A stretch of DNA of 60,273 nucleotides, counting the filler, from Candidatus Woesearchaeota archaeon (GTDB taxonomy: Archaea; Nanobdellota; Nanobdellia; Woesearchaeales; JACPJR01), in assembly GCA_016187565.1 (NCBI GenBank). It is 3 parts of 3 records of this genome, joined end to end, with 100 filler letters (N's around TTAATTAATTAA, not from the genome) between each part and the next. Parts side by side here need not be neighbours in the genome. Positions count along the whole stretch, not along the records: positions 1 to 19,943 come from JACPJR010000013.1; positions 20,044 to 43,349 come from JACPJR010000020.1; 1 more part is not named here. One strand, given 5' to 3'. Position numbers: made by a program. Every line of letters starts with the position of its first letter. Positions within the stretch are counted from its first letter, which is position 1. This document shows positions 18,001 through 33,000 of the stretch, piece after piece.

Positions 18001-21000
18001 ATCCAAATTTGAAAATATTTTCCCACAAGTCATTAAAAGAAGAAGAGACTGCAAATTTTGGTTTTAGTGCTAACAACCCTCTTCGTTGGTTCGCAGACTC
18101 TTTAAGTCCACGATGGTTTGCATACACGCCATTAACACAGCTACAGGAAGCAGTCAGCAGTGATGGTTCAGTAAACCAATTCAAGTTTCCAATAACTGAC
18201 ATTAACCCCACAGTGCTAGCTGACTTAGGGGCTTATACGAATGGTCCAGCAGAGTATTGGAATGAAGGCAATAAATACGACTGGATTTATTTTAGTTTTT
18301 TTGATAATGATTTAGGTGGCGGTAGAGGTACGGTAGAGATCATGGCTGTTAAAGAGATTACGTTTACTGCTGATTACGGTATCATTACCGTTTCCTATAA
18401 GGAAGGAACTACAGACAGAACTGTCTACGGAGAGCCTCAATCGTATGCAGTTGGAGATAGAGCCGGATTTATCTCGAGTTCTTCACCCGGTTTTGGTTCT
18501 TTAGTCTTTAAGATGAACCTCTACTGCAGAAAGGATTTAGAAGCTACTACGAATTGCAATCAATTACGCGTGGATAGTTTTTCTGGAACGACGGTTAACT
18601 GGCCAGAGGCAGCATCAGACTATGTTAGTTATTTCTTAGTCCCTGCTGCATTTGAGGGAGTGTATCTCAATGACGGTGTCATCTATGATGCAGATGGTGA
18701 ATTACAACGCGATTATGGCTTTCGATTTTCTGGCTCCAGCCCCTCTGAGTATAGGCTAGACCAAGATTTAGACGGCAATGTTGATGCTTTCGCTGATGTA
18801 GAATTTCAACTCTATCCCATCTATGAAGAATATTCGGGCTTAATTAAACAGAAAGCCAGTGATCAAGGAAGGCCAGAGTTTGCAGTTATGGTTAATGGCT
18901 ACCTCGTCCCTGGGCCAGATCCCAGTAATCCCTTGCCTCATCTGACCACTAATGGAAGAAATTACGAAGATTTTAATGGTAACTTTCAGGGTACCTATCT
19001 CGAGTCATTAGAGCAGTATCGGCAGACCCATTACAATCCCAATTTTCTAGCACAACCCGTCTATTCGTTTATTTCAGAAAGAGATCGAGACTATTACGAG
19101 GGTGGTCAATACTACCAGGGACACATCAACAGCAATAATTGGGAGGATCATAGAAATATCATGGCAATGACGTTAGTTTTCGGTGATGGCTATTATGGCC
19201 ACACCTGGAGTCACGCGACAGGTATTCCTACTTGTGTTCTCGATTTAGAAAGTAAAGGAAATGAAGATGTCGGCCCAAGAGATGATTGGTTTGACGAGTT
19301 TAGTGTTGATCCTTATGGATTCAGTGCAAAGCATCCCCTGTACAGCGGTGAGATCCTCTGCTATAATCACAGTCAAAGTGGGATTATCTGTGGTGCTAAC
19401 CGTGCCCAATATTTGAAATGGCTAGGAAAGGAAACTAAAACAATCTATAATCTTTCGAGTCAGGGATATAGTGACGTCTATCGAAGAGATTTTGAAAAGG
19501 GGATTGCTCTTATAAGCCTGGACAATGAAAATAGAACGATCAACATAGAACCAGGTTATGCACGAATTATTGGCATAGATCAAGATAATAAAGGAAACCT
19601 CTACAATGATGGGTATCCAGTAACAACCCTAAATCTCTCTCCCCAAGGAGGTATTATCCTCAGAAAAGTGCGTAATGATACCACAACTATTTCTCTCATG
19701 CAGCCAATGAACAATTCCTTCCATAGAGCAGATGGGGGCGTGAGCATCTCCTGCAATGCACAGAGCTACTACGGAACAAAAAATATCTCGCTGTACACTA
19801 ACATCACAGGAACGTGGGAGATCTACACCACACAGAATAGTGATGAGCTAAGCCTCACCCTCACTGGACTACTTCCAGGAAGATATATCTGGAATTGTTT
19901 AAGCGCTGAAACCTATGATACTTTATTTTGGGGAAATGAAAATNNNNNNNNNNNNNNNNNNNNNNNNNNNNNNNNNNNNNNNNNNNNTTAATTAATTAAN
20001 NNNNNNNNNNNNNNNNNNNNNNNNNNNNNNNNNNNNNNNNNNNAGTAAAATAAACGGTTTCTAGAAGATATATTTTGCGTTGTTGGGAAGAATTCCCCTT
20101 ACACTACCACTGACTTTGTCCAAGTTCTGCTTGATGCTGTGGAGCACATCGACTTTACGAACAACACCTGTGTTCGTGTAGGTGGTCCGACGGGAGAAAC
20201 TGTTTTCTTTTTGTTTCTTTCTTCATTTGGTTTCTACCTAATCAAACCTTCTCGGGTTGTGACCTTTGGTGGATCATTCATTTTTGAAATCGTGATTTCC
20301 TTAGATGGTTCCAATCTGAGACCTTAAAATATTCTTTTTCTTTAAGATAAGTAATAACATCTTTCACCGAATTAAATGAGAACCTTTGATCTCGTATTGT
20401 ACAATGGTCGTGGTACAAATCCAACGCTGAGCCTTCTTCGATACATAAAACATACTTATCCTGTAGGTTACTTTTTTCTCTAAAGACTGTATAGTCCAAG
20501 AAAATTTTTTGTCCATCTGTTTCGTATTCATAGCTTACTCTAAGTGTATATCCATTCATCATCTGTATCTTGAATTCTTCTTCGCTGAGATTCTTGGATT
20601 TATTTATCAATTTTAGATTATGATCATCTCTCACCGATATCACCTCTTCGTATCATCAATGGTTATTGTGTACTTGTTTTTATTATCTTTTATGTTAATA
20701 TGAGGAGAATTAGCATGAATACTGTCCGGGGGATGACCATACATTTTTCCAGTAGACTGATCTACCAAATAATCTGTATGATATGCAGTTCCATCATATG
20801 CTTTAAACGCTTTTAAGGATTCTGGCGTTGATTTAGGCCCAGCACCTGGAAACTTTTTAGCTTCAGGAAATGTCTGCATTCGTAAAGCATTAGCTTCCCT
20901 AAATGAACCAGCTGTTGCTTCACCGGTTTCTTTTAGATTTTTGGACTTTTTTAGAAAATCAGAATTCTTCTGAAATTCGAGAAGTAATTGTTCCTGCCGT

Positions 21001-30000: not shown

Positions 30001-33000
30001 ACATTCTCGGTCCAACCAACAGGATTTTGGTAATAAGAGAATTCTATTGTCGGAAGCTCTGAAACAGCATCACTTCCGATATGACGAATCTTCTTGAGCA
30101 AGTAATGATTGTCTATGCCTTGATAATCAAACACATATTTTCGTACCAGATTCTGTTTGTTTTCTACCATAATGGCAGAAAGTAATCCACTCTGTACGAT
30201 CTTGGTTCCATAACTATACCCATAAAACGCACGTTGCGTAAAAGTATAACTGAAAGTAATCGTGTTATCGCCATAGATGATCTTCGACAAATACATTGCC
30301 TTGTCTGTTCCAGGATTCTTAAGATACTCATAGGTGATCGTATTCCCGTGAACATCAATAACCTGATCAAGATACCAGACACTGGTATAAGTTTCCAAGC
30401 TTGATTCAAGCGTGCTGCTTGTTGTTGAACCAAACCGATATGTAGTTCCATCCTTACTCTTCAATAACCAGCCATTGCCATCTCGCGTAATATACATGTA
30501 GGTCTCATGCTCAGTATGATACAACGAATCAACCGTATCATACACTAATTTCATGGTCATGCCATTCAAACTCACAGAGAACGTATCATCGCTGCTATTC
30601 GATCGGGTATGCTCAATATCACGATAAATAAAATCCGTACTCATGCCCCAGCCTGTCCCTACAATACCTTTTCTACTACCCTGATGACTATTGTAGTTTA
30701 TCGTAATGGAAGGTTGTAATCCATTAACGCCGGGAGGAACTTGCAACGGATACGAATAACCCGCTGAGCCACTAAACAAGTCATTCGTAAAAATACCTTT
30801 ACTCGCAAACTGACTTAACAGGTTCGTTGGCAGTGTGTTCTTACCAATAGATTCCAAAAGATCTGGTAACGTAGTAATAACGTCTGGATCCATATCAAGC
30901 GGTACTTCTACTGCTTGAGATCCCTCTACAGGAAGTTGTTGTTCCTGAGTATCAATGTTTTCTCGGTCTGCAGGAGGAAAATACAAGGAAGTAACATCAG
31001 AAACTACGATGTCCGAATCTGTAGAAGCTGCAGAGCTAAACGGAGTTAGAATAATGAGGAGAATAGAAACATAAGCAACAATTCTTTCTGTAACTGTTTT
31101 TCTTAAGGTATCTTTCATCGTTAATCATCTGTTTTAATCTTTAAGCAACTCTTTAACTATCTCGTCCATTTTATCTTTGAATGCTTTGATCTGAGCTAAA
31201 CACTTTTTTTCTTCATCTGTTGTCGGTTTAAAGTTTCTTATTCGTTGATTAAGATATTCATCGATACAGATTTCAGGCATAGCTGTCTTTTTATCAAATT
31301 CATTTCTTGAGAATGCTCCTTCCCACGAAATATAATCAGAATGGTCTAGTATTAAGGCGTCCCATATTTTTTGTAATTCTTTACTGTTTTCTGGGAAATC
31401 AGGAATGCCAATAAGATCTAAATCTTTAATTAGCCTCTTTATATTATCTTTATTCATTTTCTACCTCCCTATGGTTTTGGACTGTGGTAGCTATAGAGTG
31501 TTTCATAGCTATCAATATAAACCAATTCTCCGGTCTTGGGATTTACTCTTCTAAATCCAGGTTCTATTCTACCAGTTCCTGTAAATGGCTTCCATTCATC
31601 GTAAATTTTACTCACCTGAACATAATCTGATTCTCTGGGCTTACCAAAATTAGATTTAAATTTATTCGCTTCAACTGTAAATTTATAGGGATTGTAGCCA
31701 GCAGGATTTGTTCTAACTTTACTTTGATGCTCCAACATATTCTTATAAGAACTACTTTCTCCTCCAGCAGCCCATGATTTTTCTATGTATGCAGATTTAA
31801 AAGTTCTTCCTGCTCCTGCAGTTGCTCCACCAATAAGGGCGTCAGTTGCAATGCCTGCAGGACTCAAAATATCCTTCGTGACTTTCTCTCCCTCTAGAAC
31901 ATTTGCAGTTGCAGTTCCAGCTCTACCTCCAGCGACTCCCGAAGCTGCACCAAGACCCATTTCTGCACCTAAACTTAATCCAGCTCCTCCTGCAACAAGA
32001 CTTCCAATACCTAAAGTTAGGCCCGCAACTCCCCCACTTGCTGCACCGACAGTTGCGCTTTTGCCTACCTGATGCCAGTCTACTGTCCCTTTAGTAATAG
32101 AAGCCCCATGATACAATTGAGTAGCAAGATTAATAGTTCCGCCGGTTACACCTCCAATAGCAATACCGATTAACCCAAAAGCAAGGGTAGGACTCTCACC
32201 ATTTGGATCCATATACTTAACAGGATTATTCCGTGCATAACTGTATTTATTTAATTGCTGTGGGTCATATATATCAGGTTGTGCTATATCAGGCTGGATA
32301 AACCTTGCTTGGTCAGGAGCATAATACCGAGCATCGTAATACTGCAATCCTGTCTCTCTGTCCTTTTCTTTGCCAGTAAAGAGATAGCGGTCATTGCCAC
32401 CTTCAATGACTTCACCAAACGGTAAATATTCAACCTCTTCAACCACATTCCCTGCTTCGTCAGTTACCAGAGCGGTACTACCCAGTGCATCAGGATGGTA
32501 GAAATATTTCTTGCCATCAGGATCCTTGCGAGCTAATAACACGCCATTATTATCATAATAGTATTGGGTATTTTCAACACGACCATCAGGTCGAACTACT
32601 TGCACAAAATCATTGCCTACATAATATGTTGAGGTATTCGTTCCATCTGCATGATATTCTATCTTATACGATCGTTGACCTAAGTGATCATACTCATACT
32701 CAGCAAGAATCCTACCGGTAGCATTTTTATCTCGTACTTTTGATAATTGATGCTCGGAGTTATACTGGTAATAATAATTCGCATCTTGCATTAAATTGCC
32801 ATTGCGATCATAGGTCAGATTAACCGTAACATCAATCAAAGCAGAACTCAAGGGAAGTGTGCCTATCAGAAACATCAAGAGTACACTTACCGACAATAAA
32901 CGCTGAATGGTGATCACCGAAGCACCCCCAAGTGATGAAAATAGGCTTGATTTAATAAGCCTTGTGGTCGTTCTTTCGAAGATCTTACGGTGGAGCATAT

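What a model noticed while it worked through the whole genome (the two positions that open the first line are those of the whole stretch)
20278..32998. Two-part secreted RHS toxin system: one shell protein, swappable self-secreted cap+toxin chains
Four loci (C12:235-12955, C34:216-10550, C34:104844-112861, C27:118697-127960) encode a 1900-2400-aa YD-repeat shell protein with signal peptide and Ig-like stalk but no RHS core, and separate small genes with their own signal peptide, a near-identical ~220-aa RHS core ending in the PxxxxDPxG autocleavage motif, a unique C-terminal domain and a small downstream gene. This is likely a surface-displayed polymorphic toxin system in which a reusable cocoon is loaded after export with exchangeable cap+toxin chains, each with its immunity gene. 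Such a split RHS, and RHS weapons in DPANN archaea, were not found in print.
Evidence so far: Call 49: shells g00759, g01793, g01691, g01334 (SpvB, TcdB_toxin_midN, RHS_repeat, Big_9/CARDB) lack the motif; cores g00756, g00761, g01790, g01693 have it; cores 84-88% identical over 222-230 aa, tails unrelated; g01692 is Colicin_immun; one tail weakly HNH-type. Call 51: core in 26 of 151 order genomes, mostly in open frames of 316-537 aa, several with tandem copies; many begin with a hydrophobic signal. Call 214: shell in 24 of 151, all 24 among the 26 with cores, usually within ~6 kb on the same contig. Paper searches 50, 52, 215 found nothing on this; PMC6393860 has no mention of RHS.
(Added by a program. 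Inside this text positions count along the whole contig: they may not be those of the stretch shown here. "Call 12" and the like, gene names such as g00115 and contig names such as C1 are that model's own, and its searches are not shown. The text may have been shortened before it was handed on; [...] marks where a part breaks off. The agent that wrote the report below was given it as the finding of a first reader that could run no searches.)

Follow-up and report, generated by a model that had tools for sequence, protein, structure and literature searches.

The report
Split, separately exported RHS toxin cocoon
This small archaeon encodes an RHS toxin capsule as separate genes, a large lidless shell and several short lid-plus-payload chains, each with a predicted export signal, so the capsule is likely assembled and loaded with a likely toxic payload outside the cell, and the same split recurs in many related archaea and some bacteria.

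Summary
The split is real. Window 24564-31118 encodes a 2184-aa SpvB/TcdB_midN/YD shell that has no RHS core. Two flanking genes each encode a leader peptide, a 214-aa core with the PxxxxDPxG motif and an unrelated tail, each followed by a small gene. The break is in exact register: fused relatives read straight through it, and others carry 65-1180-aa inserts at the same point. Caps occur in 77 of 401 order genomes, shells in 56 (53 with caps), and both in Geobacter and Nitrospirota. Split and fused forms interleave on trees. A second family is in three leader-bearing chains. Relatives' tails include colicin D, Ntox47 and barnase (barstar downstream). A model of a natural linker-fused relative overlays TcdB2-TccC3 (821 residues, 2.3 Å). 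The principle has precedent: Tc YenB accepts three YenC chains from separate loci, and a BC-like domain was predicted in a DPANN protein. New here: a leader on every chain, a much later break, repeated fission, immunity genes, no TcA found. Assembly, tethering, reuse and targets are untested. New variant; interest 0.7.

The parts
31469..32917 (-). Cap+tail chain 2 (482 aa from GTG 32917): leader 1-26, RHS core 27-240 ending in PVKYMDPNG, Gly/Ala-rich segment, unique C-terminal domain
   Evidence: tail has 2 clear relatives, both behind RHS core motifs; RNase lead only, score 0.86
31134..31457 (-). 107-aa gene right after cap 2, candidate immunity protein
   Evidence: position only; no Pfam or NCBIfam hit
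24564..31118 (-). Core-less shell, 2184 aa: leader, SpvB, FG-GAP repeats, TcdB_midN, YD repeats to about residue 1762, Ig/cadherin stalk
25839..25847 (-). HAP motif (residues 1758-1760), end of the YD shell; the split site follows the next strand
24567..25796 (-). Big_9/cadherin/tandem-95 stalk ending in a 52-aa module shared by 9 ORFs of the genome
23173..24567 (-). 464-aa leader-bearing protein overlapping the shell stop; 61% identical to a C1 paralogue; role unknown, possibly accessory
   Evidence: no family hit
21982..23172 (-). 396-aa leader-bearing protein, 48% identical to a C23 paralogue; role unknown
   Evidence: no family hit
20640..22004 (-). Cap+tail chain 1 (454 aa): leader to residue 35, RHS core 36-249 ending in PVKYTDPSG, unique C-terminal domain
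   Evidence: weak Tox-HNH-EHHH hit, E 0.03, below cut-off; Ntox37/Ntox47/EHHH leads, 0.86-0.88
20278..20643 (-). 121-aa gene overlapping the cap 1 stop, candidate immunity protein
   Evidence: position only; no family hit

Best explanation
This is an RHS polymorphic toxin whose cocoon is encoded in separate genes, a core-less shell and short cap-plus-tail chains, each with a predicted signal peptide; they are likely exported separately and would then assemble outside the membrane, enclosing a likely toxic tail. Shown: the gene layout, the in-register break, the leaders, the variable tails, and toxin and immunity families in relatives. Inferred steps: (1) Sec export and cleavage of both chains. 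(2) The shell folds as an open cup closed at the SpvB/propeller end. (3) The first strand of the cap pairs with the last strand of the shell and finishes the spiral, and the aspartyl-protease plug closes it with the unfolded tail inside, as in TcB-TcC. (4) The tail is cut at DPxG and later delivered to a neighbouring prokaryote by an unknown route. (5) The small downstream gene protects the producer. (6) Near-identical caps let one shell type carry different tails. The Ig stalk would hang outside at the seam and may bind targets or the cell's own surface.
For: Register: four fused relatives read HAV-turn-YxYDxNGN straight through. Split shells stop or turn into a stalk after HAP (three stop within about 6 residues), and caps begin at xLxYDxNGN right after the leader. 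Sixteen of 116 shells are fused through inserts of 65-1182 aa. Leaders: 80 of 95 homologues whose core starts within 70 residues have a hydrophobic leader; the same stretch in 6 of 6 longer chains where YD repeats precede the core is not hydrophobic. SecY and an archaeal signal peptidase are present. Co-occurrence: all 39 genomes with a strong shell match have a core match; 30 of 38 complete core-less shells have a full cap gene in the fetched locus. Structure: the model of natural linker-fused L059 has pLDDT 88 and pTM 0.83, with only the linker and the last three residues under 50, and overlays TcdB2-TccC3 over 821 residues at 2.3 Å. Toxins: 3 of 53 tails pass Pfam cut-offs (colicin D, Ntox47, ribonuclease); barstar follows the ribonuclease tail (E 9e-22). 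Precedent for pairing in trans: YenB with YenC1-3.
Against: No experiment shows binding or assembly after export. The single-chain model may simply echo solved RHS structures. The mirror-tree signal is weak: shell end versus cap rho 0.55, distant SpvB versus cap 0.46, 26 loci. Neither window tail passes a family cut-off, and 50 of 53 tails do not. Twenty-four of 77 genomes with a core match had no match to this shell query; the query misses much of the second family and many assemblies are incomplete. Some leader-bearing chains keep only the last 38-40 core positions (L145, L154, P0241), and no partner supplying the rest was found. Six tandem caps in G167 and the bacterial caps have no clear immunity gene. 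No delivery machine was identified.
Confidence: 0.7

Rival explanations
1. Caps are stand-alone secreted toxins (leader, autoprotease stub, toxin), and the shell has become a separate adhesin or empty scaffold.
For: Mini-chains with a leader and only the last 38-40 core positions exist, one carrying the same tail family as window cap 2. More genomes have cores than shells (77 versus 56 of 401). Shells carry adhesin-like stalks shared with non-RHS proteins.
Against: The start of full caps is fixed at the strand that continues the shell. All 39 genomes with a strong shell match keep caps. Shell and cap genes are often adjacent or overlapping. Fused forms interleave with split ones on the tree.
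Confidence: 0.15
2. Caps are ordinary silent orphan cassettes that become active only by recombining onto a full-length rhs gene.
For: Tandem cores with immunity genes resemble orphan arrays (PMC3150448). Some cores are truncated or lack leaders. Extra tail variants join this core in the read sets. Fused forms arise repeatedly.
Against: Caps have start codons and leaders. No fused gene was found in G000 (96.7% complete), and the matches in single-contig genomes G025 and G390 are all in short frames. The shell ends in a stalk that shares no core sequence for recombination.
Confidence: 0.07
3. The chains do assemble, but the complex is mainly a contact, recognition or host-manipulation device rather than a weapon against competitors.
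For: Most tails have no family (50 of 53; 20 of 21 second-family tails). Second-family and bacterial caps often lack immunity genes. One bacterial tail is a CHAP amidase.
Against: Colicin D, Ntox47, barnase with barstar, Imm26 and Colicin_immun hits; 33 of 44 caps are followed by a gene of 250 aa or less.
Confidence: 0.08

Closest known systems
Tc (ABC) toxin BC cocoon: YenB with YenC1/C2/C3 (PMC11067744); TcdB2-TccC3 (PDB 4O9X)
   Same: SpvB + propeller + TcdB_midN + YD shell split over two genes; the second chain carries the RHS core, the cleavage motif and a variable tail; several interchangeable second chains, some at distant loci. The model overlays 4O9X over 821 residues at 2.3 Å.
   Different: The break lies about 325 residues later (shell residue ~1765 versus ~1440), so the cap is ~214 aa instead of ~680. 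Each chain has a leader, whereas YenTc is released by cell lysis. No TcdB_midC hit, no TcA found (control empty). Antimicrobial-type tails with immunity genes; Ig stalk at the seam.
TcdB/TcaC-like exported polymorphic toxins (Zhang et al. 2012, PMC3482391)
   Same: Signal peptide, SpvB, integrin-like propeller and RHS repeats; listed there for Euryarchaeota and many bacteria. The direct fused relatives belong here.
   Different: In the passages read, cassettes act by recombination onto a complete gene; here the core and toxin sit on a separate leader-bearing gene and the shell ends in a stalk.
Orphan rhs-CT/rhsI and cdiA-CT/cdiI modules (Poole et al. 2011, PMC3150448)
   Same: Short core + toxin + immunity modules in tandem.
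   Different: Orphan cdiA-CT genes mostly lack start signals and a signal sequence, and orphans sit behind a complete gene. Here they have both signals, and no complete gene was found in the genome.
SPEARE proteins of Nanohaloarchaeota (Hamm et al. 2019, PMC6642349)
   Same: Giant DPANN surface protein with a predicted BC-toxin-like domain and adhesion domains.
   Different: Single membrane-anchored chain with protease and restriction-enzyme domains; no cap genes, variable tails or immunity genes in the passages read.
Bacterial teneurin-like proteins (PMC13018210; PDB 9IFO)
   Same: YD shell holding a toxin, immunity genes, no known delivery machine; Z 34.9 to the model.
   Different: One chain; FN-plug/NHL-type N-terminus (recalled) rather than SpvB/midN.

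Membership tests
Rhs/YD polymorphic toxins | YD-repeat shell | tested here: met
   RHS_repeat and TIGR01643 above cut-off; fold matches
Rhs/YD polymorphic toxins | RHS core with PxxxxDPxG motif | tested here: met
   TIGR03696 in 4 of 4 caps; motif in 4 of 5 own cores, DEQG in the fifth
Rhs/YD polymorphic toxins | variable C-terminal toxin domain | tested here: inconclusive
   variable yes; 3 of 53 tails pass toxin-family cut-offs, neither window tail does
Rhs/YD polymorphic toxins | immunity gene directly downstream | tested here: inconclusive
   barstar, Imm26 and Colicin_immun at other loci; window small genes have no hit; none evident in G167 and the bacterial loci
Rhs/YD polymorphic toxins | shell, core and toxin in one polypeptide | tested here: not met
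   0 of 4 shells have TIGR03696
Rhs/YD polymorphic toxins | autocleavage and toxicity | not testable with these tools
   needs experiments
TcdB/TcaC-like export class | signal peptide + SpvB + integrin-like propeller + RHS | tested here: met
   leader judged by hydropathy only, no signal-peptide predictor available
Tc (ABC) toxin BC | TcB with midN and midC domains | tested here: not met
   midN found, midC not among hits at E 0.1
Tc (ABC) toxin BC | TcC with RhsA region over 400 aa, 851-1050 aa long (PMC7861908) | tested here: not met
   cores of 214 aa, chains of 454-482 aa; break about 325 residues later
Tc (ABC) toxin BC | TcA partner | tested here: inconclusive
   PF18276 not found, but the control genomes also gave nothing
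Tc (ABC) toxin BC | heterodimer encloses the cleaved tail | not testable with these tools
T6SS/eCIS-delivered Rhs | PAAR domain or gene | tested here: not met
   PF05488 not found in G000 (96.7% complete); control rang in 3 of 14 genomes
Orphan rhs-CT/rhsI cassettes | no start or signal sequence; located behind a full-length gene | tested here: not met

The most novel reading that the evidence does not exclude
A plug-and-play RHS weapon whose cocoon is built outside the cell from two or three separately Sec-exported chains by strand complementation. The gene has been cut independently, many times, at several points of the spiral (before core positions ~1, ~80-105 and ~170, and inside the YD shell). 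One shell type is then loaded in trans with any of an array of cap+toxin chains, with no recombination needed. It is a common armament of Woesearchaeota-type archaea and also occurs in Nitrospirota and Geobacter.
Probability: 0.55. Interest if true: 0.85.

Novelty: new variant of a known kind. Interest (0 to 1): 0.7.

Why it matters
Known RHS cocoons enclose their cargo as one chain or, in Tc, as two chains of a toxin released by cell lysis. Leaders on every piece would mean that folding, closure and loading happen after export. That is a new assembly problem and a natural dissection of how the spiral folds. It would let a cell express a mixed arsenal from one large gene plus small cheap ones. 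It also gives a testable handle on an open question, how uncultured DPANN archaea fight or manipulate neighbours: about one in five sampled order genomes carries it, with recognisable RNases and immunity genes that can be assayed in laboratory strains.

Tried and rejected
A single-sequence model of tail 1 was useless (pLDDT 33). Alignments A4-A6 misplaced repeats and were dropped; A7 was used. The promoter/terminator scan was at chance level (47 versus 40.2 ± 6.2). No RNA holder was listed, so nothing can be said on expression. Assembly artefact was rejected: one contig spans 25707-32387 and the layout recurs in many genomes. Read-through or frameshift fusion was rejected as a general mechanism because caps lie upstream of shells in many loci, including this one. 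An uncleaved-anchor idea arose when PF10502 and PF00717 gave no hit and was dropped when TIGR02228 found a signal peptidase. The mirror-tree test was weak. The idea that the 52-aa C-terminal module and a module of the 396-aa gene are halves of one domain found no contiguous example. The TcA search was uninformative. Earlier-finding look-ups by words and by sequence returned nothing. Makarova 2019 was not held.
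Full report
THE WINDOW. The window joins three contigs across N gaps; 20044-43349 is contig C12 of a 1.94-Mb genome, 96.7% complete. 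The best named homologues are labelled Candidatus Woesearchaeota or Nanoarchaeota, from which I infer the lineage. On the minus strand, tightly packed, lie: cap 2 (31469-32917), a 107-aa gene, the 2184-aa shell (24564-31118), two leader-bearing genes of 464 and 396 aa, cap 1 (20640-22004) and a 121-aa gene.

OBSERVATION. The shell has SpvB, FG-GAP, TcdB_toxin_midN, RHS_repeat and Big_9/cadherin domains. TIGR03696 hits 4 of 4 caps tested and 0 of 4 shells. The three close cores share 194, 178 and 181 of 214 residues; their tails align at 8 to 54 of about 205 positions, significance not tested. One independently assembled contig, perhaps from the source sample, spans 25707-32387. Leaders were judged by sequence and hydropathy only.

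THE BREAK IS IN REGISTER. Among 116 distinct shell regions with both marker domains, 93 have no core, 16 are fused to a core through an insert of 65-1182 aa, 4 are fused directly and 3 are cut by a contig end. Some database proteins counted as core-less could be partial. The direct fusions read HAV, a short turn, then YxYDxNGN without a break. Split shells end or turn into a stalk just after HAP, three of them within about six residues, and caps start at xLxYDxNGN right after the leader. The stalk can sit on either side: L038 and L042 have shells ending at the break and caps with 600-970-aa N-terminal extensions. Of 120 listed core homologues of 246-784 aa, 103 have the full core, 95 of these start within 70 residues, and 80 of the 95 have a hydrophobic leader.

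STRUCTURE. I folded the natural linker-fused relative L059 with 38 aligned sequences: pLDDT 88, pTM 0.83, with only the linker (641-692) and the last three residues under 50, and strands on both sides of the linker. It overlays TcdB2-TccC3 over 821 residues at 2.3 Å; YenB covers model residues 1-316 and YenC2 covers 313-906. The Tc break therefore maps to window shell residue ~1440 and this break to ~1765. This shows the two parts are compatible across a floppy linker in a model. It does not show that separate chains bind, and it may echo solved structures.

DISTRIBUTION. Cores: 77 of 401 order genomes; of the 150 matches listed (66 more were not shown), most lie in frames of 300-600 aa. Shells: 56 of 401, 53 with cores; all 39 genomes with strong shell matches have cores. 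These tallies include the unpublished genomes G182 (both) and G315 (cores). At phylum level 43 of 401 genomes match at E 1e-20, 9 of them from other orders. Of 51 distinct shells in loci L031-L110, 38 are core-less, 7 fused and 6 cut; 30 of the 38 have a full cap in the locus. Of 44 caps, 40 have a hydrophobic leader, 38 are 600 aa or less and 33 are followed by a gene of 250 aa or less. L031-L050 were chosen for having cores, which inflates the 30 of 38. The same split occurs in records named Pacearchaeota, Aenigmatarchaeota, Geobacter sp. OR-1, three Nitrospirota records and a deltaproteobacterium. In the class of one Nitrospirota genome 23 of 251 match; the best 8 are in frames of 424-826 aa and many of the rest in long frames. 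Records labelled 'Methanosarcinales' also have it, but I did not verify those labels.

REPEATED FISSION. Split and fused forms interleave on trees: 11 changes among 116 rows (FastTree) and 10 among 46 hand-picked rows, at least 8 forced by strongly supported branches (IQ-TREE quick). The trees are unrooted and many rows differ in composition, so direction is not established. The C27-type family breaks later: its YD chain ends at core position ~56-69 and caps start at ~76-103. In G069, G234, G042, G097 and G167 the shell itself is two genes, giving three chains, with leaders on all but one N-terminal piece. In G167 and G234 about 35 core positions between the two ends are unaccounted for. G167 has six tandem caps with no genes between them. 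Some leader-bearing chains start at position ~170 (L145, L154, P0241), and I found no partner for them; this counts against a single tidy model.

CARGO AND IMMUNITY. Of 53 tails, 3 pass Pfam cut-offs (colicin D 1.8e-11, Ntox47 5.7e-20, ribonuclease 3.6e-17). Of 21 second-family tails, 1 passes (Fic). One of 5 bacterial tails is CHAP. Of 21 downstream genes scanned, barstar follows the ribonuclease tail and Imm26 follows another; a weak Colicin_immun hit follows the weaker colicin D tail. In G000 the C34 small gene is Colicin_immun. The window's own tails give leads only. Read sets hold two further tails joined to this core that are not in G000; they may come from a strain variant or a relative.

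MECHANISM. Shown: layout, register, leaders, variable tails, and toxin and immunity families in relatives; SecY and an archaeal signal peptidase are present and no PAAR was found. Inferred: separate export; the shell folds as an open cup; the cap completes the last turn and its protease plug closes it over the unfolded tail; cleavage at DPxG; delivery to a neighbouring cell by an unknown route. The RNase tails imply cytoplasmic targets in prokaryotes, and immunity genes imply that kin or self can be hit. Swapping at the protein level is inferred from near-identical caps and from Tc. Reuse of a shell has no support. Surface display is open: a 52-aa C-terminal module shared by 9 ORFs, including FG-GAP and protease-like exported proteins, is the only candidate tag. 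Confidence 0.7; rivals are stand-alone toxins 0.15, a non-weapon role 0.08 and silent orphans 0.07.

LITERATURE. Passages seen: PMC3482391 (TcdB/TcaC class; RHS toxins in Methanosarcina), PMC7861908 (TcC criteria, orphan TcC), PMC11067744 (YenB binds YenC3 from a distant locus), PMC8636562 (shell, plug, motif), PMC3150448 (orphans), PMC6642349 (BC-like domain in SPEARE), PMC10847046 (YenTc release by lysis), bioRxiv 10.64898/2026.07.27.741052. For PMC13018210 I read the abstract and Discussion. Nine searches listed no paper describing leader-bearing caps with core-less shells; only titles and abstract openings were seen for the other listed papers. Makarova 2019 was not held. No supplements were read; those of Zhang 2012 and Hamm 2019 could bear on novelty. 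The library lacks most subscription papers.

VERDICT. A real and widespread new variant of the TcB/TcC-like RHS toxin. It likely works like the Tc BC cocoon but fails Tc membership on midC, chain size and break position. Interest 0.7.

Noticed in passing
window 24567-24722; G000 C1, C15, C18, C19, C32, C34: A 52-aa module ends 9 ORFs of this genome (two shells, an Ig protein, FG-GAP and protease-like proteins; two are cut at contig ends). Candidate sorting or docking tag; not found in the other loci searched.
   Followed up: partly
L149 (G000:C1:37519-42215): The shell's Ig stalk (56% identical) and the 464-aa neighbour (61%) recur together at a locus with no YD shell; the stalk is a shared module.
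   Followed up: partly
L051:6633-8457, L055:6529-7434, L057:3499-4395: Bacterial split loci are preceded by leader-bearing genes of one type; the one scanned has a phage tail-collar hit (E 5.5e-6).
   Followed up: partly
L051:8477-9722: The Geobacter OR-1 cap stops 33 residues after the motif in an A-rich stretch, and an HExxH-bearing frame overlaps it; the gene looks broken or mis-sequenced.
   Followed up: partly
L145:1426-2256, L154:10144-10923, P0241: Mini-chains: leader plus only the last 38-40 core positions plus tail; P0241 carries the same tail family as window cap 2. Partner unknown.
   Followed up: partly
L050:7503-14143: Six tandem leader-bearing caps with different tails and no genes between them; no Pfam hit for any tail.
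   Followed up: partly
window 21062 and 21258: Loose contig ends show other tails joined to cap 1, one right after the motif and one about 65 residues into the tail; neither is in G000.
   Followed up: partly
P0228, P0232, P0235, P0237: Unnamed proteins with a leader and a core starting at position 100, so the later break also occurs outside the loci studied.
   Followed up: no
G000:C24:23938-44349: An open frame of at least 6803 aa with stalk-like repeats, running to the contig end.
   Followed up: no
window 17418-19943: An 841-aa frame with no Pfam hit runs into the N gap; it lies on another contig and is not part of this locus.
   Followed up: no
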